Source: Proteromonas lacertae
Lineage: Eukaryota
NCBI GenBank assembly: GCA_002245135.1
Contig: NGBS01000345.1
Location: forward strand, 1-48,810
Length of the DNA stretch: 48,810 nt
Reading direction: 5' to 3'
Below, piece after piece: positions 2,266 through 40,691 of the stretch. The notes under the pieces are model-generated. The model made no database searches. It had not been told where the DNA came from and saw only the letters and a program-made list of their open reading frames with translations. The translations under genes and the position numbers were made by a program. Position 1 is the first letter of the stretch; every line of letters begins with the position of its first letter.

Positions 2266-2400
2266 CTATATACAAATGCCTTCTAAAATTCTGGTTAATA
2301 ACTCGTTGAAGAGAGATTTTCGTGGTTCTAACTTACTGTACATCTCTATTTTGGGTGGAGTGACTTTAGACGGAAAGTTGTAGTAAAAGTTGACAGTAAG
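2266..2400 (-). pseudogene. Remnant homologous to the C-terminus of the small ORF of the Polinton-like element
   Basis: Manual translation LTVNFYYNFPSKVTPPKIEMYSKLEPRK...* matches AINIYYNFPSSITPPKIELYSKLE of ORF 20470..20763. An in-frame TAA lies immediately upstream. Confidence 0.75.
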
Positions 2401-9183: not shown

Positions 9184-9300
9184 TGATAATATTATAACTT
9201 TTTTGAATTAAGATATTCTTATTGGAATTTATATTCTTTGTGTTAGTTGGATAAACAACTACAGCAATTGTTAAATGTTATTTACGATGATCATCAGAAA

Positions 9301-9318
9301 AACCCTAACCCTAACCCT
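9301..9318 (-). repeat. Interstitial telomere-type repeat (TTAGGG)x3
   Basis: AACCCTAACCCTAACCCT on the + strand. Confidence 0.7.
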
Positions 9319-9372
9319 TTCTCCTTCTATTACTTCATCATTTATTCCATCTTCTATTATTTCATCTTCTAT

Positions 9373-19330: not shown

Positions 19331-19423
19331 TTCCAAAACACAATGCAAAGAGAAAAAATAAAATATATAGGTAATAATTTCAAGGTAAATTACTTGTTGC
19401 ACAAATACATTTAAATATCTTAC

Positions 19424-19429
19424 AGAACC
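19424..19429 (+). repeat. 6-bp target-site duplication AGAACC (left)
   Basis: Identical AGAACC at 40375..40380. Both copies abut the palindrome ends. Confidence 0.9.
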
Positions 19430-19799
19430 ATAATAATGTATAAATAAGGGAAATAGAACGTGAATCAAACTATTATATACGAAAATTTTCCATGACCGTC
19501 AATTACCAAAAGCGTTCTATTTTATTATACGAAACGGCTATTTTACCATGTAACGGCCAAATTTTTTTGGGAATTCCTGACATTTTTAGTTCCATTTCCC
19601 TATGCCATTTTTTTTCCTTTGACCATTTTTGGGACGAACTGACACGTAAAAAATGGTCAATTACAAAAAGCGTTCTATTTTTTTGACCTCGTAATTACCT
19701 CAAAATGACCACACCGATCGATGCAGCTCGTCATGCTGCATCCATCTAAATACATATTTTTTGTTTTATGAACTAAGTGTATATCGCATATTGTCATTA

Positions 19800-20201
19800 A
19801 TTTCAAAATTCGAAATAAACTCTATCAATTGATGCACCATCGATCGGTGATGCGATTGACATATATTATATACATATATGCTATAGTACACAATTCATGA
19901 GAATATTGTGAAACGAATATTTTTTTATATATATTGGAACATATTGACAAATGCTCAATAAGGCATAATAAGCACATGTATCAATTCTTTTCATGATGGA
20001 GCATCGATCTATGCAATAAAAAGAAATTTGAAAATTTTTATGAAATCCATCTATCATTTTACGAAATATTTTGAAAATCGAAATTAACCATCTCAGTCGA
20101 TGTACCATCGATCGGTTATTCCATTGACATATCATATTCACATATATGCTATGTCACTCAAAATATGAAAATATTATGAAACAGATATTTTTTCATAATT
20201 A
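19800..20201 (+). repeat. ~270-bp repeat cluster 1 (~1.5 units; mirror 39603..40004)
   Basis: GAAACG(G/A)ATATTTTT-like boundaries at 19910 and 20178. Nearly identical to 26055..26323 and rich in ATCGAT/CGATCG palindromes. Confidence 0.85.
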
Positions 20202-20469
20202 TTCAATTGATTATTTCGTTTATTTATTCCTTATGGTTCGAACTAAGTACACAAATCGCTAACCAACATATTGCTGATTTTATCTTATCCCTATAGTGTT
20301 TATTTAACCAAAACATTTATATTCAAACCTAAATTCAAACCTTTATCATTTTAATTTTTTTCTTATGATTGATAAACACTTCAAATATTTTTTATTTACG
20401 AATATCTTTAACACCCAACAAATACATAATTCAATAATCAGATTACTTTTAATTATTCACTCTAATGTT

Positions 20470-21125
20470 TTAATGTTGCTTCTTTATTTTACCTACCGAC
20501 TTGATATTATCTATTTCCAGCTTACTATATAACTCTATTTTGGGTGGAGTAATACTTGATGGGAAATTGTAATAAATATTGATGGCTTGTCCAATAGCTT
20601 CATCGTATTTGAATATTTCATCCACCATAAAGCTATGCAACATACATCTCACCTCTTCAGTAGCTGGTCCATACATTTTCAGAACATCATGCCATTTGCA
20701 CCCATTAAACCTAATCCACTCCATTTGAAGCTGAAACTTGAGTCTTCTGGTATACAATAGCATCTCATTGCTAAAGCTGAGGTTCCATTTGCTTGGGTGT
20801 ATATGTCATCCAGCTTTATCACAGTTTCATCTAAATAGCTTTGAAACAAATCCTGTTGCACATTGGCCATTGCTTTGTACATTCCTTTGGACCCTTTACT
20901 CACAAATGGTTTTACGATAGACCTAATGTCTCTAACTTTCTTAATTAAACCTGGCACTCCATCCACCAACATCTGAAAATCACGATGATAAAGTTCATCT
21001 GATGATATTAATTGATGCGACATGAAATATAGAAAATTGGAGTAAGAGAGTGTAACGACTATATTTTTTATTTTCTCAAAACTTGATTGGACACCTTCGG
21101 TACGTCTCGAAAGATGATTGGTCAT
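20470..21125 (-). CDS. Element gene of unknown function, split into overlapping 148-aa and 97-aa ORFs (probable frameshift)
   Basis: The ORFs overlap by 85 nt. A shift at ATG TTC TGA AAA TG would give ...GMMFLKMYGPATEE. The same arrangement occurs in both arms. Confidence 0.55.
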
Positions 21126-21196
21126 ATCCTATATCATTATCGACTAACCAATAAAATTGAACAAAATACAAAAATATAGTCGTTATACTATATATC

Positions 21197-22018
21197 ATGA
21201 TTTCACCCAAAACTTATGTATTGAATGATCTTTTAGTAGTTGAGACTACAAGAAAAGCATGTACTATCCTAATCATCCCTCCAGAGACAAACAAGAGGAT
21301 TTTAGATGAAAATGTGAAAATCATGTTAATGGGTCCAGAGTTTGATATAGAAGAACCACTTCTGGAGATAATGCAGCCAAAGAAGTTATGGATGGTCAGA
21401 TTTCCTCAGTGTTTCAGACCGCATGTGATAACATCCTTAGGTGAAGAGTGGGTAAAGAAGAATGTCAGTTGGCAATACTTCAGAGACGATCTCGAGTATG
21501 AAGACTTCATGTGTAAGAAGTATAAGTTAAAGAAGGAAGATCATTTCAAAATCCCAGAATTGAAAAGCGAGGTGGAAGAATATGTGTGTAATGCAATAGG
21601 TAACAGAATTGGTAATATTAAAGATGTAGTGTTTGATGGAGTAGTTGGATACAAATCTTGGAATGTCAAGAATAAGGATGGAAGTGATTTGTTTGTACTG
21701 GAGTATCCAGATGATGATAAGATAGAGGATATTTGCTGTATGCTAAAGATATTACCTGAGAGCAATGATTTCTTAATTAACAGTAATGCATTAATCACAA
21801 TTTTAGGACCACAGTATCATTTGAAAGAACCACTGTTTAAAGGTTGTTATGATCATAACATGTATGAGATTATACTCCCAAGAGCTCCTGCTATCTTAGA
21901 TACAACATTACCTTACAATTGGGTCCAAGAGCATATCAAAAGATGTTGGGAGCCAAGCAAAGGTCAATTGATCGAAGAATTAATTGCTAAAGGTATCATG
22001 GTGGATCCTTGCGCATAA
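21197..22018 (+). CDS. Element protein of unknown function with an internally duplicated ~70-80-aa domain
   Basis: 273-aa intronless ORF. CTILIIPPETNKRILDENVKIMLMGPEFDIEEPLL aligns with CCMLKILPESNDFLINSNALITILGPQYHLKEPLF. Confidence 0.8.
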   Translation: MISPKTYVLNDLLVVETTRKACTILIIPPETNKRILDENVKIMLMGPEFDIEEPLLEIMQPKKLWMVRFPQCFRPHVITSLGEEWVKKNVSWQYFRDDLEYEDFMCKKYKLKKEDHFKIPELKSEVEEYVCNAIGNRIGNIKDVVFDGVVGYKSWNVKNKDGSDLFVLEYPDDDKIEDICCMLKILPESNDFLINSNALITILGPQYHLKEPLFKGCYDHNMYEIILPRAPAILDTTLPYNWVQEHIKRCWEPSKGQLIEELIAKGIMVDPCA

Positions 22019-22187
22019 ACATGAGAGAAGTAAAAAAATATCCGTTTCAGGATCAATTGTTTTTTGTTGGGTTATATAACATAAATAAATCATCTTAAAA
22101 TAAAATATATGCATTGTCTTTATACATAACTAAAAAGAAATTGAAAATATTTTGTAACGACTAGTTTTTACTGACTTTCGATATTTC

Positions 22188-22239
22188 ATTGGCTGATGCA
22201 GATACGTGGCCCAATCATATTGCAATCGATTTCTATTGG
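22188..22239 (+). promoter_or_regulatory. Putative PolB promoter: three CCAAT/ATTGG boxes and ATACGTGG
   Basis: ATTGG 22188, ATACGTGG 22202, CCAAT 22211 and ATTGG 22235, all 65-115 nt upstream of ATG 22303. Confidence 0.35.
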
Positions 22240-22302
22240 TCATGAGACTCTAACTAGCCACTCAGATTCGACATTCAAGATTCAAGATTTTTTAAGTTCA
22301 AG

Positions 22303-25300
22303 ATGTTCCCTCAATACCCATATGGTTACAATATGTATCATCCAATGATACAAGGAGGTGGTATGCCACCATATAACAATGGGATGCCACCTATGCAGTC
22401 TATGTACTACTATGCTCCTCAACCCATGATGGTACCAGTACCCATGCCCATGTATGGACCACCACCTATGTATGGTCAGCAGCAACCATTACAGCAACAT
22501 CCAGTAAACACTTTGGCTCAAAGTTCATTCAGACCGATACTTCCACGTCCATCTGCACCATCTCAACAGCAAACTATGTATCAAACACCTCAGAGAAGAC
22601 CAGCAGTGCTAGCTGAGCCTCCACCACCACCCAAAGTTCAAAGAATCGATCCAGCTCAATTTCAGCGATTTTTGGAGGATGATGATATTCCAGAGTCTCC
22701 AAATCAAAATCAACCACCAGCATCAGAAATAGAAGAGACTCATCCCCAGGACACCAATGTGAGTAGTGAATCCAAGCAAGAAGATAGAGATGGATTATTA
22801 GCTCTAGATATAGTACAGAATCATCCACAACAATTAAGAAATATACCAATCACAGTCAGAAGAGAATTAATGGATAAAGTGATTACATCCTCAAAAATGT
22901 TCAGCATGTCAATCCCAGTGAAATTTGGTAAAGAAAAATTTGAAATCGCAAAATCCCCAGAATTGGTGTTTGAAGCATTGACTGGATTTAAGAAAGATAG
23001 ACAAGAAGATGAACCAGCTGTTGTACCAGAGTGTATGGTGTTGATTAGAGAATTTATCGAAAATTTTGGTTATGCTAAAATTTATTATACATTCAAAGTG
23101 GCTTATATAGCAGCAGATGAGGTTGAATCAAATGATACTGGTGAAACTATGTCAAATTGGAAAAGTTTTGATACAGAAGTAATTACATGCTCTAAAGGTG
23201 ATTTAGGTGGTGTATTACCAGAAAAGCTGTATTATCACTTATATGATAGTATGGGTGAGATATTCAATACTCAGAAGTCAGATTTGAGATTTCGATGGAT
23301 TAATGAAGTTACAATTAATTTAGCTCGATCTCGTGTAACAACTGGTTCTGCAACTAATGATAACGAAATAGAGAACATTCCATTACCAAAAGAATTATCC
23401 AACAAAAAATGTATACTTAACTTGCAATTTGGTAAAACAGTTGCTAGACAAAATATATGCTTTTTATATGCAGTAGCCGCATCATTACACTATATGGAGT
23501 TTCCAAATAATAGACATCGCTCATATCATTATAAAAAATATGTTGAAGCATATAATGTGAATTACTTAGAATTTCCTGTGGATCCAATGAATCACCAGCA
23601 TGGTATAAGAAAATTTGAGAAGTGTAACAAAATTACATTAAATGTATTCACAGTGGATTCTAATGAAGCTATACCATTATATGTCACCCAACAAGATAAA
23701 AACAAAAATTGGCCACATGCTAATATACTTTTCTATGGAAACCATTTTTATCCTATTACCAATTTAAATGCATTTTTACTACCATTGGATAAAAAATGTA
23801 GTAATTATGTAGAGAGATGCCCATATTGCTTCTGCAGTTTATTTACCAATAGATCTATAATATACCATCAAAAAATCAATTGTCAATTAAAAAGTAATAG
23901 AGGTATTATTAGAAAGTTCCCAGAACCAAATACAAGAATATCGTTCAAAAATTACAAGTTTATGCAAATGATGCCAGTAGCCCTATATTGGGACACTGAA
24001 ACATATCAAGAAGATTTACCTCAAAATACTGAAATCAAAAATGCCAAAGGTGGGGCAACAGATGATTTCATATATAGGTGGGGTTTGGAAAAAGGACACT
24101 TCCCTTACGAATATTGCGATACTTTGGACAAATATTATAAAACTAGCCATTTACCACCCAAAGAAGCATTTTATTCAAAACTCAAGCAGGATGAAAATAT
24201 TACAGATGTAGAGTATGCATCATGTTGTGATTTGTGGGATGTACTCCAGTGCAAAGATTTGATGGATTATAACCTCTTCTATCTAGCTATGGATGTACTC
24301 ACTTTATCTTCAGTATTCGATCACTTTAGAAAAGTAGTGTTTAGAAATTTCGATTTAGACCCATGTTGGCATTTATCATCACCAGGTCTGTCATGGAGTG
24401 TGTTTCTAAAATATTGTCCTGTGGAGATAGAGTTATTAAGTGACCAAGATAAATATGACTTTATACATAGTGGTTTGATAGGTGGTATATCTATGGTTGG
24501 TTCAACACGTTTGGAAGAAGCTCATAATCACTATATGGACCCACCTGTACATCCTCCGCTAAGAGAATCATATATATGTTATCTAGACTATAATTCACTT
24601 TACCCTAGTACAATGGCCACTATGAAACTTCCATATGCTGATTTCAAGTGGGAAGAAGGAAATCCAGATGAATTGATGAAATTGTACCATGATGTAATAT
24701 ACAATGTAAAAACGTATGAAGAGATGATTAGTAACTGTCAAAGATATAATGATACAGAATGGGATGACATGGATTCCAGAGGTTATATATTAGAGGTAGA
24801 TATCGAGCCTCCCCAAAACACTCGCAAGTTTGATGAATATCCATTATTCCCAGAGAAGAAGTGTATTCAATATGAACACTTATCTAGTTTACAGCAAAAG
24901 TGGGCATGTGAACTTGGATTGGTAAACAAAAAGAATCACATCAAAAGCAATACACCCAGAATTATATTGGATATGTCTCCGAAAAGAAAATACGTGGTGC
25001 ATTATCAATATTTAAATTTTGCTGTTTCCTTAGGTTATAAAGTATCGAAAGTACATCGAATTATATCATTCAAAGAATATCACTTCTGTTATGATTTTGT
25101 GATGAGATGTCATACCCTGCGTAGAGATGCCAAACAACATAAAAGAGAAGCAGAAGCAGACACTTTCAAATTATTGTTAAATTCAGCCTATGGAAAAATG
25201 TGTGAAAATACCGAAAATCGATGTAGATCAAAATTGGTGAACAATGAGGAAGATTTTTTGAGATGTGCCAGTAATCCTTTTTTCAGTGGATTTATCAGTA

Positions 25301-26031
25301 TTGATGGATGTGATTTAAGGATCTGCAAATTTAAGAAGTATCAATGTAAGGTGAATAAACCAAGTTACATAGGGATGTGTATTCTATTTGAAAGTAAACA
25401 TTTAATGGCTAAGTTTTGGTATGGTCATCTCTATAGAAAATATGGATCAAGCCTCAAGCTTTTGATGACTGATACAGATAGTTTCATTTTCAAAGTGTAT
25501 ACGAGAGATATATATGAAGATATAATGAATGATGTGGCTTTGGAAGGCAGAATGGATACTGGTAATATAAGTTGTGATTTTCTTGAGTCCAAAGGTATTA
25601 GGTATACTAATGCTCAAAGAACTTCTGATCTCAATTTGATGAAAATGGAAGAGAATAAAAATGGTTTGTACACTATTATAAAATTTTGTGGTTTAAAGGC
25701 AAAAATGTATGCCTATGAGAAACAAAGAATCGATGGTGTGAATTCGTTGTTACTAAGCGATTCCAGAGCTAAAGGTGTAACTAAAGGATTTAGGTTACAG
25801 ACATGTGATTTCAATTATTATTACGATATCTTAACTAAAGCTGATAAAGTGTATGTGGAGCAATATTCGTTCAGAACAGCACGTCAGTGCATATATACTA
25901 TTCGTATGAACAAATTGGCATTTACGATCTTCGATGTGAAAAGAAAATATACTACAGTGTATGACTCAGAGCCATACAGAGATGTTATTAAAGAAGTAGA
26001 AGATGCATTAGAAGATGATGATGACACATAA
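22303..26031 (+). CDS. polB: Protein-primed family B DNA polymerase (Polinton type)
   Basis: 1242 aa with YLDYNSLYP, KLLLNSAYGK, MTDTDS, KAKMY, RAKGV and KGHFPYEY. ExoI-like WDTET and ExoIII-like YLAMD are present, as is an N-terminal CFLYAV...HFYPI module. Confidence 0.95.
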   Translation: MFPQYPYGYNMYHPMIQGGGMPPYNNGMPPMQSMYYYAPQPMMVPVPMPMYGPPPMYGQQQPLQQHPVNTLAQSSFRPILPRPSAPSQQQTMYQTPQRRPAVLAEPPPPPKVQRIDPAQFQRFLEDDDIPESPNQNQPPASEIEETHPQDTNVSSESKQEDRDGLLALDIVQNHPQQLRNIPITVRRELMDKVITSSKMFSMSIPVKFGKEKFEIAKSPELVFEALTGFKKDRQEDEPAVVPECMVLIREFIENFGYAKIYYTFKVAYIAADEVESNDTGETMSNWKSFDTEVITCSKGDLGGVLPEKLYYHLYDSMGEIFNTQKSDLRFRWINEVTINLARSRVTTGSATNDNEIENIPLPKELSNKKCILNLQFGKTVARQNICFLYAVAASLHYMEFPNNRHRSYHYKKYVEAYNVNYLEFPVDPMNHQHGIRKFEKCNKITLNVFTVDSNEAIPLYVTQQDKNKNWPHANILFYGNHFYPITNLNAFLLPLDKKCSNYVERCPYCFCSLFTNRSIIYHQKINCQLKSNRGIIRKFPEPNTRISFKNYKFMQMMPVALYWDTETYQEDLPQNTEIKNAKGGATDDFIYRWGLEKGHFPYEYCDTLDKYYKTSHLPPKEAFYSKLKQDENITDVEYASCCDLWDVLQCKDLMDYNLFYLAMDVLTLSSVFDHFRKVVFRNFDLDPCWHLSSPGLSWSVFLKYCPVEIELLSDQDKYDFIHSGLIGGISMVGSTRLEEAHNHYMDPPVHPPLRESYICYLDYNSLYPSTMATMKLPYADFKWEEGNPDELMKLYHDVIYNVKTYEEMISNCQRYNDTEWDDMDSRGYILEVDIEPPQNTRKFDEYPLFPEKKCIQYEHLSSLQQKWACELGLVNKKNHIKSNTPRIILDMSPKRKYVVHYQYLNFAVSLGYKVSKVHRIISFKEYHFCYDFVMRCHTLRRDAKQHKREAEADTFKLLLNSAYGKMCENTENRCRSKLVNNEEDFLRCASNPFFSGFISIDGCDLRICKFKKYQCKVNKPSYIGMCILFESKHLMAKFWYGHLYRKYGSSLKLLMTDTDSFIFKVYTRDIYEDIMNDVALEGRMDTGNISCDFLESKGIRYTNAQRTSDLNLMKMEENKNGLYTIIKFCGLKAKMYAYEKQRIDGVNSLLLSDSRAKGVTKGFRLQTCDFNYYYDILTKADKVYVEQYSFRTARQCIYTIRMNKLAFTIFDVKRKYTTVYDSEPYRDVIKEVEDALEDDDDT

Positions 26032-26054
26032 CTAATTTCTTATTTCTTATTTTT

Positions 26055-26617
26055 GAAACGGATATTTTTTTATATATATTGGAACATATTGACAAATGCT
26101 CAATAAGGCATAATAAGCACATGTATCAATTCTTTTCATGATGGAGCATCGATCTATGCAATAAAAAGAAATTTGAAAATTTTTATGAAATCCATCTATC
26201 ATTTTACGAAATATTTTGAAAATCGAAATTAACCATCTCAGTCGATGCACCATCGATCGGTGATTCCATTGATATAACTATAGTGACATATATGCTATAT
26301 CACCCAAAATATGAAAATATTATGAAACGGATATTTTTTTATTATTTTGAGAATTTCAACATATACTCTATATGACATAATAAGCACATGTATCGATTCT
26401 TCTCATGATGGAGCATCGATCTATGTAATAAAAAAGACTTTAATAAAAAAATTTATGAAATCGATCAATCATTTTACGAAAAATTTCAAAATTTGAAAAT
26501 AACCACATCAATCGATGTACCATCGATCAGTGATGCGATTGACATAATATATTCAACATATATGTTATTGTATGCAATTTATGAGAATATTGTGAAACGG
26601 ATATTTTTTCATAATTA
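26055..26617 (+). repeat. ~270-bp repeat cluster 2 (two tandem units; mirror 30433..30994)
   Basis: GAAACGGATATTTTTT at 26055, 26324 and 26594. Confidence 0.9.
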
Positions 26618-28383
26618 ATCTATTATTTTCTCATATTTTCATTCATGGTTCATATAAAGATCACCTACCAAAAGCCCACGTATACATTACTTTTTTATGC
26701 TTATAGATTCATGCCACATCATGGCAGATCAAATTATGGCAGATTGATTCAATCAACACCATCACCTACACCTAAAAGTCCATTCCACATTAAGATCAGT
26801 CGTGAATTCTATATATTTAATAAAATTCTGCATGATGCGTATAAACATAAATCAGATGGGTGTTCAAGATTAATAATGATAATATTGTCACTATTCGCTA
26901 TAACCCATTTAAGTGTAATAATACTCATAATTGATGAATTTTATTTCTGCTTTGTGTTTTGCTTTTAATCAATATATTTAGCACTAATAGCTACGATCCA
27001 CATCTATACCGCAAGTTTAGCAATCAAAATCATTATATACCTAAACAGCCATCTGCAGATGGTAACTTATTACTTGCAACATATATTAACCATGGAGCAC
27101 TAAATATACTGCCACCTGCAAGAAAGGCTTCGTTTGAAGATCAAATGTCAAGTTAAATTTCTCAATATCGATCATGCTTAGATGAATTTTATAAGAAGTA
27201 CTATTACATGAATGAAAGTGAATTTATCAAAATGACCTAACAATTGACTAGCGTGAATGACACAGCTCCACCCTCAAATATGGTACGTGAATATTTAAGA
27301 ATCAAATTTTTGATGCAATGCTGTTACACAAAATCTTCCTTCATGAAATCAATTTTTGATACTTTTGTTGTTTCAATTACCTATTCCAAAGAAACTTATA
27401 GCATCATGAAGTTGTCTTGTTTAATCAAAATTACTCACTGCACTTCCAAAATTGCTGAGTGAACTTGGAATTTACTGTTGTGATCTCTTCACGTAGTTAT
27501 TCATTTTGATTGCATTCTTGCGTTCATATGGTTTTGGTTTCAAAAAGTTTAATAAAGTGCCTGCATACAACAAACTAATTATTGTTCCCAATGCAATGAA
27601 TACTGTTCCTACAGTTGCAACAGTAGCTTATGTACCTGTTGACATGTTGAATAAAAAGTGAAGTACCAAAATTATACAACAAGTCTAATGGAAGTTATGA
27701 TTTTTGCAATGCTTCAGGTAAACATTGACTTCACTTTTTTCTGAATTGCCATAATCCAATCATTGATGAAAGGTATATGTTCTCCTAATATTATATGTAT
27801 AATCTCATACTAGTCGAAAATGAAGTACCACATCACATACACATACATGAAGCCTGACATAGACAAATTTTGATTTCTTCCATAACCAAAATGATGTACA
27901 TGAAATGAGTATTGTATGTATATATTTCATTGCATGAATGTCAAACATTTTAAGAAGTCATTCAACCTATCACATAAGACTTCACTGTATAAATACATTC
28001 TCTACACACAGCAACAAATTACATGTAAAACAAATAAAATCAGATTCACGCTATGAATCAAGTGCTTTTTGAAATTGTGAATTTTCAAATTTAGATCATG
28101 AACTACATGAACTTTTCAAAAAACCAATTGCTATTTGAAACTTTTCTTGATTATCAGCATTCATCCACTCTTCAGGAAGTGAGTGTCCTAACTTCTGTGA
28201 AGTTTTTATATTCTGTGATCCTACTTCATTCAACAATTTATACTAATGTTCATTAATTCATGAATATTGTTGAGGTTCAATTTCTTGAATGCTATTTATT
28301 ATTGATTAATTTTTTGGATCTAATGTCAATCTATGAAATTTGCTCTATCTTCTATTTATGTTGTTGGTATTGGTGGTGATGTG

Positions 28384-28421
28384 GGCAGTGTACCTGCCGC
28401 CATGGCGGCAGGCACACTGCC
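28384..28421. repeat. GC-rich 38-bp palindrome (mirror 28629..28666)
   Basis: GGCAGTGTACCTGCCGCCATGGCGGCAGGCACACTGCC, with one mismatched pair. Confidence 0.9.
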
Positions 28422-31400
28422 ATGGCGACGATGTTTTCAATATTCTATATTTAATGTTACAACTGGTGCATGTTTCAGCATTCCATATTTAATGCTACAA
28501 GTGCAGTCACTTGAAACACTATTAGTTGCATTATTATAGGAGGGGGCACTTGTAACATTAAATATGGAATGCTGAAACATGCACCAGTTGTAACATTAAA
28601 TATAGAATATTGAAAACATCGTCGCCATGGCAGTGTGCCTGCCGCCATGGCGGCAGGTACACTGCCCACATCACCACCAATACCAACAACATAAATAGAA
28701 GATAGAGCAAATTTCATAGATTGACATTAGATCCAAAAAATTAATCAATAATAAATAGCATTCAAGAAATTGAACCTCAACAATATTCATGAATTAATGA
28801 ACATTAGTATAAATTGTTGAATGAAGTAGGATCACAGAATATAAAAACTTCACAGAAGTTAGGACACTCACTTCCTGAAGAGTGGATGAATGCTGATAAT
28901 CAAGAAAAGTTTCAAATAGCAATTGGTTTTTTGAAAAGTTCATGTAGTTCATGATCTAAATTTGAAAATTCACAATTTCAAAAAGCACTTGATTCATAGC
29001 GTGAATCTGATTTTATTTGTTTTACATGTAATTTGTTGCTGTGTGTAGAGAATGTATTTATACAGTGAAGTCTTATGTGATAGGTTGAATGACTTCTTAA
29101 AATGTTTGACATTCATGCAATGAAATATATACATACAATACTCATTTCATGTACATCATTTTGGTTATGGAAGAAATCAAAATTTGTCTATGTCAGGCTT
29201 CATGTATGTGTATGTGATGTGGTACTTCATTTTCGACTAGTATGAGATTATACATATAATATTAGGAGAACATATACCTTTCATCAATGATTGGATTATG
29301 GCAATTCAGAAAAAAGTGAAGTCAATGTTTACCTGAAGCATTGCAAAAATCATAACTTCCATTAGACTTGTTGTATAATTTTGGTACTTCACTTTTTATT
29401 CAACATGTCAACAGGTACATAAGCTACTGTTGCAACTGTAGGAACAGTATTCATTGCATTGGGAACAATAATTAGTTTGTTGTATGCAGGCACTTTATTA
29501 AACTTTTTGAAACCAAAACCATATGAACGCAAGAATGCAATCAAAATGAATAACTACGTGAAGAGATCACAACAGTAAATTCCAAGTTCACTCAGCAATT
29601 TTGGAAGTGCAGTGAGTAATTTTGATTAAACAAGACAACTTCATGATGCTATAAGTTTCTTTGGAATAGGTAATTGAAACAACAAAAGTATCAAAAATTG
29701 ATTTCATGAAGGAAGATTTTGTGTAACAGCATTGCATCAAAAATTTGATTCTTAAATATTCACGTACCATATTTGAGGGTGGAGCTGTGTCATTCACGCT
29801 AGTCAATTGTTAGGTCATTTTGATAAATTCACTTTCATTCATGTAATAGTACTTCTTATAAAATTCATCTAAGCATGATCGATATTGAGAAATTTAACTT
29901 GACATTTGATCTTCAAACGAAGCCTTTCTTGCAGGTGGCAGTATATTTAGTGCTCCATGGTTAATATATGTTGCAAGTAATAAGTTACCATCTGCAGATG
30001 GCTGTTTAGGTATATAATGATTTTGATTGCTAAACTTGCGGTATAGATGTGGATCGTAGCTATTAGTGCTAAATATATTGATTAAAAGCAAAACACAAAG
30101 CAGAAATAAAATTCATCAATTATGAGTATTATTACACTTAAATGGGTTATAGCGAATAGTGACAATATTATCATTATTAATCTTGAACACCCATCTGATT
30201 TATGTTTATACGCATCATGCAGAATTTTATTAAATATATAGAATTCACGACTGATCTTAATGTGGAATGGACTTTTAGGTGTAGGTGATGGTGTTGATTG
30301 AATCAATCTGCCATAATTTGATCTGCCATGATGTGGCATGAATCTATAAGCATAAAAAAGTAATGTATACGTGGGCTTTTGGTAGGTGATCTTTATATGA
30401 ACCATGAATGAAAATATGAGAAAATAATAGATTAATTATGAAAAAATATCCGTTTCACAATATTCTCATAAATTGCATACAATAACATATATGTTGAATA
30501 TATTATGTCAATCGCATCACTGATCGATGGTACATCGATTGATGTGGTTATTTTCAAATTTTGAAATTTTTCGTAAAATGATTGATCGATTTCATAAATT
30601 TTTTTATTAAAGTCTTTTTTATTACATAGATCGATGCTCCATCATGAGAAGAATCGATACATGTGCTTATTATGTCATATAGAGTATATGTTGAAATTCT
30701 CAAAATAATAAAAAATATCCGTTTCATAATATTTTCATATTTTGGGTGATATAGCATATATGTCACTATAGTTATATCAATGGAATCACCGATCGATGGT
30801 GCATCGACTGAGATGGTTAATTTCGATTTTCAAAATATTTCGTAAAATGATAGATGGATTTCATAAAAATTTTCAAATTTCTTTTTATTGCATAGATCGA
30901 TGCTCCATCATGAAAAGAATTGATACATGTGCTTATTATGCCTTATTGAGCATTTGTCAATATGTTCCAATATATATAAAAAAATATCCGTTTCAAAAAT
31001 AAGAAATAAGAAATTAGTTATGTGTCATCATCATCTTCTAATGCATCTTCTACTTCTTTAATAACATCTCTGTATGGCTCTGAGTCATACACTGTAGTAT
31101 ATTTTCTTTTCACATCGAAGATCGTAAATGCCAATTTGTTCATACGAATAGTATATATGCACTGACGTGCTGTTCTGAACGAATATTGCTCCACATACAC
31201 TTTATCAGCTTTAGTTAAGATATCGTAATAATAATTGAAATCACATGTCTGTAACCTAAATCCTTTAGTTACACCTTTAGCTCTGGAATCGCTTAGTAAC
31301 AACGAATTCACACCATCGATTCTTTGTTTCTCATAGGCATACATTTTTGCCTTTAAACCACAAAATTTTATAATAGTGTACAAACCATTTTTATTCTCTT

Positions 31401-32696
31401 CCATTTTCATCAAATTGAGATCAGAAGTTCTTTGAGCATTAGTATACCTAATACCTTTGGACTCAAGAAAATCACAACTTATATTACCAGTATCCATTCT
31501 GCCTTCCAAAGCCACATCATTCATTATATCTTCATATATATCTCTCGTATACACTTTGAAAATGAAACTATCTGTATCAGTCATCAAAAGCTTGAGGCTT
31601 GATCCATATTTTCTATAGAGATGACCATACCAAAACTTAGCCATTAAATGTTTACTTTCAAATAGAATACACATCCCTATGTAACTTGGTTTATTCACCT
31701 TACATTGATACTTCTTAAATTTGCAGATCCTTAAATCACATCCATCAATACTGATAAATCCACTGAAAAAAGGATTACTGGCACATCTCAAAAAATCTTC
31801 CTCATTGTTCACCAATTTTGATCTACATCGATTTTCGGTATTTTCACACATTTTTCCATAGGCTGAATTTAACAATAATTTGAAAGTGTCTGCTTCTGCT
31901 TCTCTTTTATGTTGTTTGGCATCTCTACGCAGGGTATGACATCTCATCACAAAATCATAACAGAAGTGATATTCTTTGAATGATATAATTCGATGTACTT
32001 TCGATACTTTATAACCTAAGGAAACAGCAAAATTTAAATATTGATAATGCACCACGTATTTTCTTTTCGGAGACATATCCAATATAATTCTGGGTGTATT
32101 GCTTTTGATGTGATTCTTTTTGTTTACCAATCCAAGTTCACATGCCCACTTTTGCTGTAAACTAGATAAGTGTTCATATTGAATACACTTCTTCTCTGGG
32201 AATAATGGATATTCATCAAACTTGCGAGTGTTTTGGGGAGGCTCGATATCTACCTCTAATATATAACCTCTGGAATCCATGTCATCCCATTCTGTATCAT
32301 TATATCTTTGACAGTTACTAATCATCTCTTCATACGTTTTTACATTGTATATTACATCATGGTACAATTTCATCAATTCATCTGGATTTCCTTCTTCCCA
32401 CTTGAAATCAGCATATGGAAGTTTCATAGTGGCCATTGTACTAGGGTAAAGTGAATTATAGTCTAGATAACATATATATGATTCTCTTAGCGGAGGATGT
32501 ACAGGTGGGTCCATATAGTGATTATGAGCTTCTTCCAAACGTGTTGAACCAACCATAGATATACCACCTATCAAACCACTATGTATAAAGTCATATTTAT
32601 CTTGGTCACTTAATAACTCTATCTCCACAGGACAATATTTTAGAAACACACTCCATGACAGACCTGGTGATGATAAATGCCAACATGGGTCTAAAT

Positions 32697-35443
32697 CTGG
32701 GTTGAATAATAAAGGGACAGGGCAGTGGCGGGACAAGGGCATGTCCCGGGCAAAAATTGAAAGGGGCGTCCTTTATACTATCTAAAAATAGAAAAGGGTA
32801 CAATTTGCCCTTTTCAATTATTTTATTTGAATTTTTATATTTTGTGCGATTTTAGGGATATTAAACGCTATAAAAATATTTATTCTTTTCATAATTATGT
32901 ATTATTATCTTATAACAATAACAAACAATAATATTTCATTATAATAATAGCCTTAAAAGTAAGGGCTTTGAGATCCTTCATCACTAAAACCTTCATCACT
33001 AGAACTTTCATTTTCATCACTAGAACTTTTATCTTCATCACTAGAATTTTCATCACTTAAACCTTCATCGCTAGAACTACCAGAACTTTCATCTTCATCA
33101 CCAGAACATTGATAATCTAAAGTGTCATATACTATATTGTTATCAATTTCATTCAGCACATCTAAATTATATTCTTCTTCACTAATATCATTATCATCTT
33201 CATTTCTATCTTTTTCTTTGTTTTTTTCTTTTAATAAATCATATTTTATTCTTAAAATATTATTTATAGTATTAAGCTGTAATTTATTTCTAATATGATT
33301 ATGAACTATTCCCTCAATACTAAATGAACGTTCAATAAATGAGCTTGTGACAGGAATAGTTGAAAGAATATCATATAGCTTCTTAACATTTGGGTAAAAA
33401 ACTCCATACATATTGTACCATATATTAGTTGATATCTTTTTCGAAAATATATCTGAAGGGCACTTTTTGGAGTATGGTTTTCTTCTTTCAAAATGATATA
33501 TCTCATTTAATGCTTTCTGATTTAAAATAGGGCTGAATTTAGATAATATATATCTTTTTATATTATCCTTCTCCATGTCTGAAAATTTATGTTTACTGTT
33601 TATGTCTAAAAATTCATATAGAGCTAAAATGCTGTAGTTTGCATGTCTAGTCTCTTTTTTTATAATGTCTTTAATAAGTTCTTTTTCACTTGATGACCTT
33701 TTCATTAACTTTCTTTTAATTTTGGTCAATATTCTGAAACCATCATTTAATGTAGATGAATCTTTGCATAATAAGTGTATATTTGTGGAAATATATTTTG
33801 CAATCTTGTAGCATTCTTTAATTTCTGGTATATCTTCTTCCTTTAATAATTTTATCTGTAATAAAATTTCTTTATTGAGTAATATTTTTCTAAATACATC
33901 GCTATAGCTTGACCATCTCGTATCACATCCCTTGCGTATTTGGATATTTTTTTGTATAATTGAATATATAATTTCTCTAATCTTTTGATTATTATTTAAC
34001 TTATGAATAATGTCATTACACATGATTATCACTTTTTTGTATTTCTCTATTTCGAATACTTTTTTACTGATTAAGTTTAGGATGTGTGCTAAACATCCAA
34101 ACTTTACTACAGGTCTATTTATTTTTTTCTCTAAAATACTACTTATCTTTTTCATGGTGTAGTTGTTATCACTACTCACAGCAACAATGTTTTTAATATC
34201 TAGTTTATACTTCACTAATGTTTGAATTATTAATTCCACTATATTTTCTGATGTTTCTCGTTTATGTAAATAAATGGATTCCAAAAACGAAATATCACTG
34301 CTTTTCTTTATTGCCAAATTAATAACGTTTTCATTGGTTACTGATTTCCAAGAGTCCACAATTATACATATTTTACTGTTATCTACAATTTCCTTTACTA
34401 TTCTTTCTGCTTCTTCGTTCATTGATGCTTTTATTTTGTTTATTGTTATTGACTTTGTAGTTGGATTTAATGCATATATTAGATTTTTAAAGGATTTAGA
34501 TTGTATGGTTCTGAAAGCTAAGTTATTTTCTATAAGATATTTGGTCACCATTAAGTTTATTGCACGTTCATCATATCTCAATTCTGTAAGTTTTGATTGG
34601 ATTAGCTTTTCACTACATCTAATTTAATAAATATAATAAATATATTTATACTTTTTGTAATGACGTTTCAAATTAGTGCAATGAGCAATAATCATTGCCT
34701 TGCACCTTCTGCATTGAATTCTGTTGTATTTTTCAAGGGGTTTCTTTAACACCACATCTTCATTAAAGTATCTATACACAGCATCTCTCGTTTTACCCAT
34801 ATACAATTGAAATGCAAAATGATAGCTCGAAATTCTCAAACCATTTTCTAAATATTCAAATAATTGCTTGAAATACATTAAGTAGTATGCAAAATATACT
34901 AAATAGTAATTTTGAAATAGTTTTTCTATTAGTTTATGAAATATATTATGTTATTATCATAACAAGTACTATTGATTATCAATTAACTGAAAATACCCAT
35001 TCTATAGCTATACTTCTTAATTATCTATATGATATATGTGTAATATACAAAATTATTTATTATATAAATTTCATTTATGTTCAGTGACGTCAATCACCTT
35101 GAAATGTACATAATGTATATATATGCATATCAGAATATGATATACAGTATGTATATTCTATATAATTAGTATATATGCATAAACATATGATATTATATAA
35201 TCATAAGAAAAGTAGATGACTATTATGCTATAATACACAATAATATATCCTTTTTAACATATGTTAGTATATCTAGATGATAATATGGAAAAGTTATAAC
35301 AAAAAATCAGAAAAAATATACTACAGCATAACACATGGTAATATTACTATGCCCGAGCAGTAAGGGGCAGGCTTCTTTTCAGCTGAAAAAAAAGGGGCAA
35401 AAATAGGGCAAAATTCGAAAAGGACGCCCTTTATCGAACCCAG
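32697..35443 (-). mobile_element. Autonomous-looking hAT transposon, 2747 bp
   Basis: 8-bp TSD GTCTAAAT (32689..32696 and 35444..35451), termini CTGGGTT...AACCCAG and GC-rich subterminal GGGCA/GGGAC motifs. The empty site is visible in the left arm near 24353..24360. Confidence 0.95.
32953..34800 (-). CDS. hAT transposase with BED finger; one 33-nt intron (34619..34651)
   Basis: Exon 1 MGKTRDAVYRYF..CRRC..NLKRHYK; exon 2 IVDSWKS, SSDNN, CLAHILNL, TRWSS, SSFIERSFS, with an acidic SSDE-repeat tail. Confidence 0.9.
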
Positions 35444-37785
35444 GTCTAAATCGAAATTTCTAAACACTACTTTTCTAAAGTGATCGAATACTGAAGATAA
35501 AGTGAGTACATCCATAGCTAGATAGAAGAGGTTATAATCCATCAAATCTTTGCACTGGAGTACATCCCACAAATCACAACATGATGCATACTCTACATCT
35601 GTAATATTTTCATCCTGCTTGAGTTTTGAATAAAATGCTTCTTTGGGTGGTAAATGGCTAGTTTTATAATATTTGTCCAAAGTATCGCAATATTCGTAAG
35701 GGAAGTGTCCTTTTTCCAAACCCCACCTATATATGAAATCATCTGTTGCCCCACCTTTGGCATTTTTGATTTCAGTATTTTGAGGTAAATCTTCTTGATA
35801 TGTTTCAGTGTCCCAATATAGGGCTACTGGCATCATTTGCATAAACTTGTAATTTTTGAACGATATTCTTGTATTTGGTTCTGGGAACTTTCTAATAATA
35901 CCTCTATTACTTTTTAATTGACAATTGATTTTTTGATGGTATATTATAGATCTATTGGTAAATAAACTGCAGAAGCAATATGGGCATCTCTCTACATAAT
36001 TACTACATTTTTTATCCAATGGTAGTAAAAATGCATTTAAATTGGTAATAGGATAAAAATGGTTTCCATAGAAAAGTATATTAGCATGTGGCCAATTTTT
36101 GTTTTTATCTTGTTGGGTGACATATAATGGTATAGCTTCATTAGAATCCACTGTGAATACATTTAATGTAATTTTGTTACACTTCTCAAATTTTCTTATA
36201 CCATGCTGGTGATTCATTGGATCCACAGGAAATTCTAAGTAATTCACATTATATGCTTCAACATATTTTTTATAATGATATGAGCGATGTCTATTATTTG
36301 GAAACTCCATATAGTGTAATGATGCGGCTACTGCATATAAAAAGCATATATTTTGTCTAGCAACTGTTTTACCAAATTGCAAGTTAAGTATACATTTTTT
36401 GTTGGATAATTCTTTTGGTAATGGAATGTTCTCTATTTCGTTATCATTAGTTGCAGAACCAGTTGTTACACGAGATCGAGCTAAATTAATTGTAACTTCA
36501 TTAATCCATCGAAATCTCAAATCTGACTTCTGAGTATTGAATATCTCACCCATACTATCATATAAGTGATAATACAGCTTTTCTGGTAATACACCACCTA
36601 AATCACCTTTAGAGCATGTAATTACTTCTGTATCAAAACTTTTCCAATTTGACATAGTTTCACCAGTATCATTTGATTCAACCTCATCTGCTGCTATATA
36701 AGCCACTTTGAATGTATAATAAATTTTAGCATAACCAAAATTTTCGATAAATTCTCTAATCAACACCATACACTCTGGTACAACAGCTGGTTCATCTTCT
36801 TGTCTATCTTTCTTAAATCCAGTCAATGCTTCAAACACCAATTCTGGGGATTTTGCGATTTCAAATTTTTCTTTACCAAATTTCACTGGGATTGACATGC
36901 TGAACATTTTTGAGGATGTAATCACTTTATCCATTAATTCTCTTCTGACTGTGATTGGTATATTTCTTAATTGTTGTGGATGATTCTGTACTATATCTAG
37001 AGCTAATAATCCATCTCTATCTTCTTGCTTGGATTCACTACTCACATTGGTGTCCTGGGGATGAGTCTCTTCTATTTCTGATGCTGGTGGTTGATTTTGA
37101 TTTGGAGACTCTGGAATATCATCATCCTCCAAAAATCGCTGAAATTGAGCTGGATCGATTCTTTGAACTTTGGGTGGTGGTGGAGGCTCAGCTAGCACTG
37201 CTGGTCTTCTCTGAGGTGTTTGATACATAGTTTGCTGTTGAGATGGTGCAGATGGACGTGGAAGTATCGGTCTGAATGAACTTTGAGCCAAAGTGTTTAC
37301 TGGATGTTGCTGTAATGGTTGCTGCTGACCATACATAGGTGGTGGTCCATACATGGGCATGGGTACTGGTACCATCATGGGTTGAGGAGCATAGTAGTAC
37401 ATAGACTGCATAGGTGGCATCCCATTGTTATATGGTGGCATACCACCTCCTTGTATCATTGGATGATACATATTGTAACCATATGGGTATTGAGGGAACA
37501 TCTTGAACTTAAAAAATCTTGAATCTTGAATGTCGAATCTGAGTGGCTAGTTAGAGTCTCATGACCAATAGAAATCGATTGCAATATGATTGGGCCACGT
37601 ATCTGCATCAGCCAATGAAATATCGAAAGTCAGTAAAAACTAGTCGTTACAAAATATTTTCAATTTCTTTTTAGTTATGTATAAAGACAATGCATATATT
37701 TTATTTTAAGATGATTTATTTATGTTATATAACCCAACAAAAAACAATTGATCCTGAAACGGATATTTTTTTACTTCTCTCATGT

Positions 37786-38607
37786 TTATGCGCAAGGATC
37801 CACCATGATACCTTTAGCAATTAATTCTTCGATCAATTGACCTTTGCTTGGCTCCCAACATCTTTTGATATGCTCTTGGACCCAATTGTAAGGTAATGTT
37901 GTATCTAAGATAGCAGGAGCTCTTGGGAGTATAATCTCATACATGTTATGATCATAACAACCTTTAAACAGTGGTTCTTTCAAATGATACTGTGGTCCTA
38001 AAATTGTGATTAATGCATTACTGTTAATTAAGAAATCATTGCTCTCAGGTAATATCTTTAGCATACAGCAAATATCCTCTATCTTATCATCATCTGGATA
38101 CTCCAGTACAAACAAATCACTTCCATCCTTATTCTTGACATTCCAAGATTTGTATCCAACTACTCCATCAAACACTACATCTTTAATATTACCAATTCTG
38201 TTACCTATTGCATTACACACATATTCTTCCACCTCGCTTTTCAATTCTGGGATTTTGAAATGATCTTCCTTCTTTAACTTATACTTCTTACACATGAAGT
38301 CTTCATACTCGAGATCGTCTCTGAAGTATTGCCAACTGACATTCTTCTTTACCCACTCTTCACCTAAGGATGTTATCACATGCGGTCTGAAACACTGAGG
38401 AAATCTGACCATCCATAACTTCTTTGGCTGCATTATCTCCAGAAGTGGTTCTTCTATATCAAACTCTGGACCCATTAACATGATTTTCACATTTTCATCT
38501 AAAATCCTCTTGTTTGTCTCTGGAGGGATGATTAGGATAGTACATGCTTTTCTTGTAGTCTCAACTACTAAAAGATCATTCAATACATAAGTTTTGGGTG
38601 AAATCAT
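37786..38607 (-). CDS. Mirror copy of the 273-aa element protein
   Basis: Identical translation to 21197..22018. Confidence 0.8.
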   Translation of the reverse strand: MISPKTYVLNDLLVVETTRKACTILIIPPETNKRILDENVKIMLMGPEFDIEEPLLEIMQPKKLWMVRFPQCFRPHVITSLGEEWVKKNVSWQYFRDDLEYEDFMCKKYKLKKEDHFKIPELKSEVEEYVCNAIGNRIGNIKDVVFDGVVGYKSWNVKNKDGSDLFVLEYPDDDKIEDICCMLKILPESNDFLINSNALITILGPQYHLKEPLFKGCYDHNMYEIILPRAPAILDTTLPYNWVQEHIKRCWEPSKGQLIEELIAKGIMVDPCA

Positions 38608-38678
38608 GATATATAGTATAACGACTATATTTTTGTATTTTGTTCAATTTTATTGGTTAGTCGATAATGATATAGGAT

Positions 38679-39334
38679 ATGACCAATCATCTTTCGAGAC
38701 GTACCGAAGGTGTCCAATCAAGTTTTGAGAAAATAAAAAATATAGTCGTTACACTCTCTTACTCCAATTTTCTATATTTCATGTCGCATCAATTAATATC
38801 ATCAGATGAACTTTATCATCGTGATTTTCAGATGTTGGTGGATGGAGTGCCAGGTTTAATTAAGAAAGTTAGAGACATTAGGTCTATCGTAAAACCATTT
38901 GTGAGTAAAGGGTCCAAAGGAATGTACAAAGCAATGGCCAATGTGCAACAGGATTTGTTTCAAAGCTATTTAGATGAAACTGTGATAAAGCTGGATGACA
39001 TATACACCCAAGCAAATGGAACCTCAGCTTTAGCAATGAGATGCTATTGTATACCAGAAGACTCAAGTTTCAGCTTCAAATGGAGTGGATTAGGTTTAAT
39101 GGGTGCAAATGGCATGATGTTCTGAAAATGTATGGACCAGCTACTGAAGAGGTGAGATGTATGTTGCATAGCTTTATGGTGGATGAAATATTCAAATACG
39201 ATGAAGCTATTGGACAAGCCATCAATATTTATTACAATTTCCCATCAAGTATTACTCCACCCAAAATAGAGTTATATAGTAAGCTGGAAATAGATAATAT
39301 CAAGTCGGTAGGTAAAATAAAGAAGCAACATTAA
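38679..39334 (+). CDS. Mirror copy of the split 148/97-aa element gene
   Basis: Identical translations to 20470..21125. Confidence 0.55.
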
Positions 39335-40374
39335 AACATTAGAGTGAATAATTAAAAGTAATCTGATTATTGAATTATGTATTTGTTGGGTGTTAAAGAT
39401 ATTCGTAAATAAAAAATATTTGAAGTGTTTATCAATCATAAGAAAAAAATTAAAATGATAAAGGTTTGAATTTAGGTTTGAATATAAATGTTTTGGTTAA
39501 ATAAACACTATAGGGATAAGATAAAATCAGCAATATGTTGGTTAGCGATTTGTGTACTTAGTTCGAACCATAAGGAATAAATAAACGAAATAATCAATTG
39601 AATAATTATGAAAAAATATCTGTTTCATAATATTTTCATATTTTGAGTGACATAGCATATATGTGAATATGATATGTCAATGGAATAACCGATCGATGGT
39701 ACATCGACTGAGATGGTTAATTTCGATTTTCAAAATATTTCGTAAAATGATAGATGGATTTCATAAAAATTTTCAAATTTCTTTTTATTGCATAGATCGA
39801 TGCTCCATCATGAAAAGAATTGATACATGTGCTTATTATGCCTTATTGAGCATTTGTCAATATGTTCCAATATATATAAAAAAATATTCGTTTCACAATA
39901 TTCTCATGAATTGTGTACTATAGCATATATGTATATAATATATGTCAATCGCATCACCGATCGATGGTGCATCAATTGATAGAGTTTATTTCGAATTTTG
40001 AAATTAATGACAATATGCGATATACACTTAGTTCATAAAACAAAAAATATGTATTTAGATGGATGCAGCATGACGAGCTGCATCGATCGGTGTGGTCATT
40101 TTGAGGTAATTACGAGGTCAAAAAAATAGAACGCTTTTTGTAATTGACCATTTTTTACGTGTCAGTTCGTCCCAAAAATGGTCAAAGGAAAAAAAATGGC
40201 ATAGGGAAATGGAACTAAAAATGTCAGGAATTCCCAAAAAAATTTGGCCGTTACATGGTAAAATAGCCGTTTCGTATAATAAAATAGAACGCTTTTGGTA
40301 ATTGACGGTCATGGAAAATTTTCATATATAATAGTTTGATTCACGTTCTATTTCCCTTATTTATACATTATTAT

Positions 40375-40380
40375 AGAACC
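40375..40380 (+). repeat. 6-bp target-site duplication AGAACC (right)
   Basis: Matches 19424..19429. Confidence 0.9.
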
Positions 40381-40691
40381 TTTCGAAGAAGAAGAAAACA
40401 GACCTTGGACCTAATAAAGTAAGACGAGGAGGAAGATTTGATCCACGAGATGATAGATTCAGAAGAGATAACAGAGATTACAAACGTAGGTATGATAGAA
40501 GAGATGATCGTCGTGATGATAGATATCGTAGATCAAGAAGTCGTAGTAGAAGTCGTAGTAGAAGCAGAAGTGGAAGAAGAAGAGATGATGATAGATATTA
40601 TAGTCGAAGAAGCCATCACAGTAGTGATAGATATGACAGTAGAAGAGATAGAAGAGATGATCGATATGAAGGTAGAAGATCTTATCATTAA
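40377..40691 (+). CDS. Terminal exon of an Arg/Ser/Asp-rich (RS-domain) protein, cut off at the element end
   Basis: Manual translation NLSKKKKTDLGPNKVRRGGRFDPRDDRF...RSRSRSRSRSRS...GRRSYH*. No ATG; starts after AG. Confidence 0.7.
   Translation, partial: NLSKKKKTDLGPNKVRRGGRFDPRDDRFRRDNRDYKRRYDRRDDRRDDRYRRSRSRSRSRSRSRSGRRRDDDRYYSRRSHHSSDRYDSRRDRRDDRYEGRRSYH

What the first reader, a model, noticed from the sequence alone, without database searches (positions are those of the whole stretch)
19430..40374. A wholly palindromic, integrated Polinton-like replicon carrying only a replication module
Seen: the inverted repeats make up the whole element (two ~9.07-kb arms, 41-nt spacer), bounded by a perfect 6-bp TSD. 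Each arm carries pPolB and two orphan genes; I recognise no integrase, capsid, ATPase or adenain protease. The arms differ (C19480 vs A40324, C28495 vs A28555, a 1-nt homopolymer indel, a hAT in one arm), which argues against a fold-back read artefact. Known: Polintons have pPolB, ~6-bp TSDs, TIRs usually around 1 kb or less and their own integrase. Inference: it integrated already as a palindrome, using an integrase in trans. It could be a snap-back defective-interfering genome, or the dimeric intermediate of a linear replicon with one protein-capped end and one hairpin end. This is the best candidate for an undescribed system here.
Basis: partly seen in the sequence, partly recalled or inferred. 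Interest (0 to 1): 0.92.

Follow-up and report, generated by a model that had tools for sequence, protein, structure and literature searches.

The report
Mirror-image defective Polinton-like insertion
A damaged virus-like element sits in this eukaryotic chromosome as a near-perfect 18-kb mirror image of itself, likely a 9-kb defective copy that was doubled tail-to-tail and then likely inserted by a helper's enzyme; free forms of such mirror genomes are known, an inserted one is unusual, but only one copy is seen.

Summary
The palindrome is real in the sequence: arms of 9,075/9,074 bp, 41-nt spacer, AGAACC duplication, 2 substitutions, 1 indel and a hAT in one arm. The flanks rejoin into a plausible host RS-domain gene, split at an intron acceptor, which favours a true insertion. 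(1) The replication module is damaged: the pPolB has only 35 residues between ExoI and KGxFPYEY against 183-439 in 13 measurable relatives, and has lost ExoII and the HNH/EndoVII-like domain; both arms share this and the other lesions, so decay preceded doubling. (2) The spacer holds the reverse complement of the element's first 9 bases followed by 8 unrelated bases, so the unit is likely a 9,108-bp monomer joined tail-to-tail (p about 0.007, post hoc). Best reading: a helper-dependent, snap-back-type dimer of a defective Polinton-like element, inserted in trans. No genome, reads, second copy or helper could be examined. Palindromic derivatives of protein-primed replicons have precedent; I found no report of an integrated one in ten searches. 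New variant of a known kind.

The parts
19424..19429 (+). left target-site duplication AGAACC (its AG is the acceptor of a 41-nt host intron)
19430..28504 (+). left arm, 9,075 bp
19430..19438 (+). element end ATAATAATG (3-base reiteration, as expected for protein priming; inference)
   Evidence: sliding/jumping-back passages in PMC4974454
19763..20212 (+). subterminal ~270-bp CpG-rich repeat units (about 1.5 copies)
20470..20763 (-). ORF97; overlaps ORF148 in another frame, likely its frameshifted 3' part; no family match
20679..21125 (-). ORF148, no homologue found
21197..22018 (+). ORF273: intact member of a small unnamed family, two ~90-aa repeated domains
22031..22086 (-). short inverted copy of the repeat unit start (TGAAACGGATATTTTTT motif)
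22303..26031 (+). pPolB, 1,242 aa, open frame; vOTU-type Cys/His motifs and Pol A/B/C present; in-frame deletion at about residues 570-585 removes ExoII and the HNH/EndoVII-like domain
26051..26627 (+). second array of the ~270-bp units, same orientation as the left one (95% and 81% identical)
26938..27462 (+). 174-codon frame with two in-frame TAA stops; weak coding signal; no family match
28384..28421 (.). 38-bp GC-rich hairpin (z -4.6), mirrored at 28629-28666
28505..28545 (.). 41-nt unique spacer, mostly unpaired in the fold-back
28529..28537 (-). CATTATTAT: reverse complement of the first 9 bases; likely the monomer's right end, followed by AGGAGGGG (28538-28545)
28546..40374 (-). right arm, 9,074 bp plus the hAT
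32697..35443 (-). hAT transposon inserted in the right pPolB copy, 8-bp duplication GTCTAAAT
40375..40380 (+). right target-site duplication AGAACC
19343..19425 (+). likely first exon and GT-AG intron of the interrupted host gene
40377..40691 (+). RS/RD-rich exon (104 codons, no ATG of its own) of the interrupted host gene

Best explanation
This is a near-perfect 18.2-kb palindrome of a damaged Polinton-like element, likely a tail-to-tail dimer of a 9.1-kb helper-dependent monomer that likely formed outside the chromosome and was then likely inserted whole by an integrase supplied in trans. Steps: (1) a pPolB2/Beta-type element lost or never carried recognisable integrase and virion genes and accumulated lesions (shown: polymerase deletion, overlapping broken frames, all identical in both arms; loss from a fuller parent is inferred). 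(2) At or just past its right end the new strand folded back or switched template, or two right ends were joined with a short filler, giving a molecule with two left ends (inferred from the terminal 9-mer plus 8 extra bases in the spacer). (3) Two identical ends make it a substrate for a helper's priming and integration machinery; integration left the 6-bp duplication in a host gene (duplication shown, enzyme inferred). (4) A hAT landed in one arm after doubling (shown: one arm only). The arms differ by 0.03%, so doubling is likely recent.
For: Geometry and duplication. Mirror stops exactly at the duplication, and the flanks rejoin into ATG exon + 41-nt GT-AG intron + RS-rich exon. Lesions exact in both arms. 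ExoI-to-KGxFPYEY 35 aa vs 183-439 aa in the 13 of 24 relatives where both motifs could be matched; ExoII motif in 20 of 24 and HNH-type motif in 18 of 24 relatives, both present in the two nearest (P0001, P0002), both absent here. Terminal 9-mer in the spacer: 0 of 8,969 arm-interior 41-nt windows and 198 of 27,678 host windows have such a match. Strand-displacing pPolB template switching gives subgenomic molecules in phi29 (passage, PMC4974454; PMC4176320 passages).
Against: One copy only; no genome, reads or helper seen (no close DNA relative). The 9-mer test is post hoc. Exonuclease loss does not prove a dead polymerase: mavirus pPolB lost most of that domain (passage), the frame is open, Pol A/B/C are intact and the model is confident (pLDDT 79.5). 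A 9-bp monomer TIR is far below the 100-1,500 bp of Polintons, so the monomer may not have been mobile in the usual way. Capsid absence is limited by detection: ORF273 and ORF148 remain unassigned. Polishing can homogenise near-identical copies and create false stops (passage, PMC10120064), so both the young age and some lesions could be affected.
Confidence: 0.56

Rival explanations
1. A propagating palindromic satellite: the natural form is a 9-kb hairpin molecule with one protein-capped end, or its 18-kb dimer, which is copied and re-inserted repeatedly with a helper. Loss of the EndoVII-like domain would leave dimers unresolved, and 18.2 kb would suit a helper capsid.
For: Dimer without hAT is 18,190 bp, inside the 13-25 kb Polinton range. 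The centre carries its own structure: 38-bp GC hairpin and 31-nt direct repeats. The nearest relatives carry an Endonuclease_7-like stretch (P0002 E 0.0034, below the Pfam cut-off) that is missing here. Hairpin-ended replicons with a putative terminal protein exist (pELF plasmids, passages).
Against: No second copy seen. The spacer is a largely unpaired 41-nt loop with a copy of the ordinary end in it. None of 83 loci with distant pPolBs has a self-inverted match over 345 bp, though they are only about 30-45% identical, 66 of 83 are under 9 kb, and short-read contigs would not show such palindromes.
Confidence: 0.2
2. The palindrome formed in a chromosome: an earlier inserted monomer broke just beyond its right end, folded back (breakage-fusion type), and the stretch between the two left ends then jumped as a composite transposon. 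The 8 extra spacer bases would be old host flank.
For: The spacer continues past the terminal 9-mer with AGGAGGGG, which starts with AG as the present target does. The window holds another long perfect inverted repeat (2,316 bp), so this genome tolerates them.
Against: Needs a chromosome break and a cut-and-paste step not shown for Polintons (my knowledge); the filler could equally be untemplated.
Confidence: 0.15
3. Assembly artefact: a fold-back long read or mis-joined repeat copies made the mirror.
For: Read support is untested. Arms are 99.97% identical; multi-copy viral inserts are prone to false consensus (passage).
Against: Different flanks with a 6-bp duplication, flanks that rejoin into a gene, a hAT with its own duplication in one arm, and a non-palindromic spacer.
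Confidence: 0.08

Closest known systems
Polintons/Mavericks with pPolB2 (Beta-type, HNH-bearing) polymerase; adintovirus/MELD-type elements
   Same: pPolB of this type (31-34% identity to animal and metagenome PolBs; fold matches adinto, bidna and MELD PolBs), 6-bp duplication, 18-kb total size.
   Different: No integrase or virion genes detected; arms make up the whole element; exonuclease/HNH region deleted; forms its own branch with two unnamed proteins P0001 (61%) and P0002 (100/100 support).
Hairpin/inverted-dimer deletion derivatives of protein-primed linear plasmids (Kikuchi et al. 1985 'Hairpin plasmid'; Vierula & Bertrand 1992 kalilo derivative)
   Same: Deletion derivative of a terminal-protein replicon existing as hairpin and duplex forms. 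Only the titles were seen, in reference lists; that the yeast case is a pGKL1 derivative with an inverted dimer is recalled.
   Different: Those are free cytoplasmic or mitochondrial plasmids; this one is in a nuclear chromosome with an integrase-type duplication.
phi29 subgenomic molecules made by template switching (Murthy 1998; Esteban 1997)
   Same: Strand-displacing protein-primed polymerase yields one-end-derived subgenomes (review passage); that they are palindromic is recalled.
   Different: Phage, not integrated, no eukaryotic host.
AAV snap-back defective genomes (PMC8235507, abstract)
   Same: Self-complementary defective genome with the same end twice, helper-dependent.
   Different: Rep/hairpin-primed parvovirus, under 5 kb, no pPolB.
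Halocafeteria virophages/PLVs with terminal palindromes (10.64898/2026.07.28.741278, passages)
   Same: Palindromes in endogenous Polinton-related elements, proposed to prime replication.
   Different: 52-nt palindromes at the ends of complete elements, mostly non-pPolB; not a whole-element mirror.

Membership tests
Polinton/Maverick | protein-primed family B polymerase | tested here: met
   PF03175 5.2e-22; fold matches phi29 polymerase; Pol A/B/C motifs
Polinton/Maverick | complete TP-vOTU-Exo-Palm architecture with ExoI-III | tested here: not met
   ExoII and HNH region deleted; vOTU-type CFLY/HFYP motifs present; TP domain not searched separately
Polinton/Maverick | own retrovirus-like integrase | tested here: not met
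   no hit among the arm's ORFs scanned; no unassigned stop-free frame over 150 codons except ORF273
Polinton/Maverick | major/minor capsid, packaging ATPase, adenain protease | tested here: inconclusive
   none detected; ORF273 is a two-domain repeat protein whose model was unusable (pLDDT 41.5), so a divergent structural role is not excluded
Polinton/Maverick | TIRs of 100-1,500 bp around a unique core | tested here: not met
   9-kb arms with a 41-nt core, or 9-bp repeats if read as a monomer (range)
Polinton/Maverick | 5-8 bp target-site duplication | tested here: met
   AGAACC
Snap-back defective genome | self-complementary genome with the same terminus at both ends and lost functions | tested here: met
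Snap-back defective genome | replication by, and interference with, a helper | not testable with these tools
   no genome or helper sequence held
Hairpin-ended linear replicon | dedicated covalently closed end whose dimer junction is resolved | tested here: inconclusive
   41-nt mostly unpaired loop containing the terminal 9-mer
Hairpin-ended linear replicon | free linear DNA with 5' protein | not testable with these tools
   needs bench assay
Foldback / long-TIR cut-and-paste transposon | arms of short tandem repeats or a central transposase | tested here: not met
   arms are coding pPolB modules and the centre is 41 nt

The most novel reading that the evidence does not exclude
A family of wholly palindromic satellites of Polinton-like viruses: a hairpin-ended 9-kb unit that has shed its cruciform-cutting EndoVII-like domain, lives as an unresolved 18-kb mirror dimer sized for the helper's capsid, still supplies terminal protein and polymerase, and integrates repeatedly with the helper's integrase. 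It would be the first integrating snap-back lineage among protein-primed eukaryotic elements and would point to a dimer-resolving role for the HNH domain of pPolB2.
Probability: 0.15. Interest if true: 0.85.

Novelty: new variant of a known kind. Interest (0 to 1): 0.52.

Why it matters
How Polintons replicate between excision and re-insertion has not been observed directly (my knowledge). An inserted mirror dimer is a fossil of an extrachromosomal step: it suggests that ends alone suffice for integration in trans and that fold-back products can be fixed in a genome. It also shows an undescribed pPolB branch (with P0001, P0002) and a small unnamed gene family (ORF273). If it is a single accident its value is as a clue to mechanism; if more copies share the centre it is a new kind of satellite.

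Tried and rejected
No whole genome is held and no sequencing-run data were obtained, so copy number, helper and read support are open. Close relatives with DNA context: none in viral contigs by pPolB, ORF273, P0001 or the 21-nt end motif; the alignment search gave 3 viral and the best 80 of 364 metagenome loci, all distant, with no real similarity outside pPolB (two linked tblastx pieces of 25 bits rejected). Ten proteins looked up by exact sequence: 0 of the 8 window proteins are in the collection. ORF273: no hit by word search, Pfam, PHROGs, PDB sequence or Atlas; 6 hits in the representative library, of which P0029 (a 7-repeat coral protein) was dropped before alignment; single-sequence model unusable. 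ORF148: nothing. A trimer test of ORF273 as a possible capsid protein was not available. Rfam: 5 matches, all below gathering score; the best simply reflects the palindrome. A long TIR at the monomer's right end: none beyond 9 bp. Central 2 kb as captured host or hAT/MULE DNA: no match within the window. Earlier scan notes: nothing. Rejected: pure read fold-back (flanks differ, duplication, hAT); Foldback transposon; fully autonomous replicon. Two precedent papers were not held. No supplements were read; element tables in them could hold palindromic copies that I did not see.
Full report
Observation. Self-comparison of the window shows one mirror from 19430 to 40374. Aligning the arms gives 9,075 bp (19430-28504), a 41-nt spacer (28505-28545) and 9,074 bp plus a 2,755-nt insert; the only other differences are two substitutions and one base in a T run. 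AGAACC flanks both ends; a 6-base match has probability 8.6e-4 at host composition. The insert is a hAT with a 532-aa transposase; I read it as 32697-35443 with an 8-bp duplication, because the ends then form a 7-bp inverted repeat. Without it the element is 18,190 bp.

Is it a real insertion? Right of the element lies a 104-codon RS/RD-rich frame without its own ATG. Left of it lie an ATG at about 19343 and a GTAAAT...TTACAG stretch of 41 nt whose AG is the first two bases of the duplication. Rejoining the flanks and removing that intron gives one open frame of 129 codons, second longest among all candidate splices tried (the longest, 130, also runs across the junction). A fold-back read would mirror the flanks and could not give this, nor a one-arm hAT with its own duplication. 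Read support itself is untested, so I keep 8% for an artefact.

The polymerase. The 1,242-aa ORF is a pPolB (PF03175). Its model (pLDDT 79.5 for residues 161-1242) matches phi29 polymerase in the PDB (E 2e-12) and bidna-, adinto- and MELD-virus PolBs (E 5e-41 to 1e-33). Among 24 homologues it groups with two unnamed proteins, P0001 (61% in the polymerase part) and P0002, at 100/100 support. The alignment shows one large gap in the window's protein after the ExoI motif. ExoI to KGxFPYEY spans 35 residues here and 183-439 in the 13 of 24 relatives where my patterns matched both motifs. The ExoII motif is found in 20 of 24 relatives and an HNH-type motif in 18 of 24, including both nearest; neither is here. 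Such an HNH insertion marks the pPolB2 group (PMC10748475, passages). vOTU-type Cys and His motifs, ExoIII and Pol A/B/C remain. Against reading this as a dead enzyme: mavirus pPolB also lost most of its exonuclease domain (10.1101/2024.03.18.585575, passages).

Other content. ORF148 and ORF97 overlap on the minus strand, and the coding signal moves from one frame to the other near 20,680, so they are likely one frameshifted gene. ORF273 is a real gene: 6 hits among 1.84 billion representatives, 5 of them unnamed 195-282-aa proteins, with an internal duplication (score 99 vs at most 62 in 1,000 shuffles; hhalign 98%). Its function is unknown to every library tried. A 174-codon frame with two stops lies at 26938-27462, with only a weak coding signal. 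These lesions are exact in both arms, so they predate the doubling unless polishing homogenised the arms (PMC10120064, passages). About 270-bp CpG-rich units (observed/expected 1.6 vs 0.36 in pPolB) lie near the end and again, in the same orientation, right after the pPolB stop. Their 17-base start motif occurs 12 times in the element and once outside, against 0.05 expected. The second array may mark a recombination point at which other genes were lost (inference).

The centre. The spacer reads ...TTGCATTATTAT AGGAGGGG, then the mirror begins. CATTATTAT is the reverse complement of the first nine bases. None of 8,969 arm-interior windows of 41 nt, and 198 of 27,678 host windows (0.7%), hold such a match; the test was made after I noticed it. 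The simplest reading is a 9,108-bp monomer with 9-bp terminal repeats, 8 extra bases, and a second copy lacking its last 33 bases. No longer terminal repeat was found. The fold-back leaves the spacer mostly unpaired; a 38-bp GC hairpin sits 83 bases before it.

Mechanism. Most likely (0.56) a defective monomer was doubled outside the chromosome, by fold-back or template switch at its right end or by end-joining, which gave two left ends; a helper's integrase then inserted it, and a hAT entered one arm after doubling. Shown: geometry, duplication, lesions, order lesions-doubling-hAT. Inferred: monomer end, place of doubling, helper. Rivals: a propagating hairpin/dimer satellite (0.20), fold-back in a chromosome followed by a composite jump (0.15), artefact (0.08).

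Comparison with what is known. It works like a snap-back defective genome, but it fails Polinton membership on integrase, TIR structure and polymerase completeness; capsid absence is inconclusive. Template switching by phi29 polymerase gives subgenomic molecules (PMC4974454 and PMC4176320, passages). Hairpin derivatives of terminal-protein plasmids are in print (Kikuchi 1985, Vierula & Bertrand 1992; titles only, in reference lists; details recalled). AAV snap-back genomes: abstract of PMC8235507. Hairpin-ended pELF plasmids with a putative terminal protein: passages. Short terminal palindromes in protist virophages and PLVs: passages. PMC8502044, PMC12721341, PMC6431247 and PMC12803027 were read as passages and describe no whole-element palindrome there. 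Ten searches of the open-licence library (listings of at most 20 papers each) showed no integrated palindromic Polinton-like element; subscription papers, Repbase and supplements were not seen. None of 83 loci with distant pPolBs has a self-inverted match over 345 bp, a weak control because most are short.

Verdict. A real and striking structure, best explained as a new variant (integrated, eukaryotic) of a known kind of defective product. One copy, no helper, no reads: interest 0.52. If further copies share the centre, it becomes a new satellite type (probability 0.15, interest 0.85).

Noticed in passing
window 4904-11688: Mutator-like element: 673-aa ORF with weak MULE and SWIM hits (E 0.004, 0.002) between 2,316-bp inverted repeats that are 100% identical; no flanking duplication seen.
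   Followed up: partly
window 19385-19425 and 40375-40376: The right duplication copy recreates an AG after the element's AT-rich end, so splicing from the host donor to the distal AG would remove the whole insertion and restore the host mRNA; the proximal AG is also intact, so this is only a possibility.
   Followed up: no
window 2326-2394: A 23-codon stretch 78% identical to the C-terminal part of ORF97 (tblastx E 7e-9; DNA score 58 vs at most 39 in 200 shuffles), beside MULE-end-like sequence: perhaps a remnant of a related element.
   Followed up: partly
window 21049-21090 / 21148-21189 and 22147-22169: A TAACGACTA motif lies near the starts of ORF148, ORF273 and pPolB, inverted between the divergent pair; candidate promoter element.
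   Followed up: no
window 9303: Short run of CCCTAA telomere-like repeats inside the MULE's unique part.
   Followed up: no
window 41101-45642: Two long ORFs (1,072 and 428 aa) with P-loop-like motifs and only weak Pfam hits; they recall Crinkler/RHS-type NTPase genes (recalled, untested).
   Followed up: no
P0001, P0002: Unnamed full-length pPolBs of the same branch on 7.6-kb and 13.4-kb contigs; P0001 has a long acidic, low-complexity insertion in the exonuclease region.
   Followed up: partly
window 20177-20300 vs 26593-26720: Similarity between the left and the internal repeat module continues, diverged, past the last unit, suggesting the monomer is a join of two related modules.
   Followed up: partly
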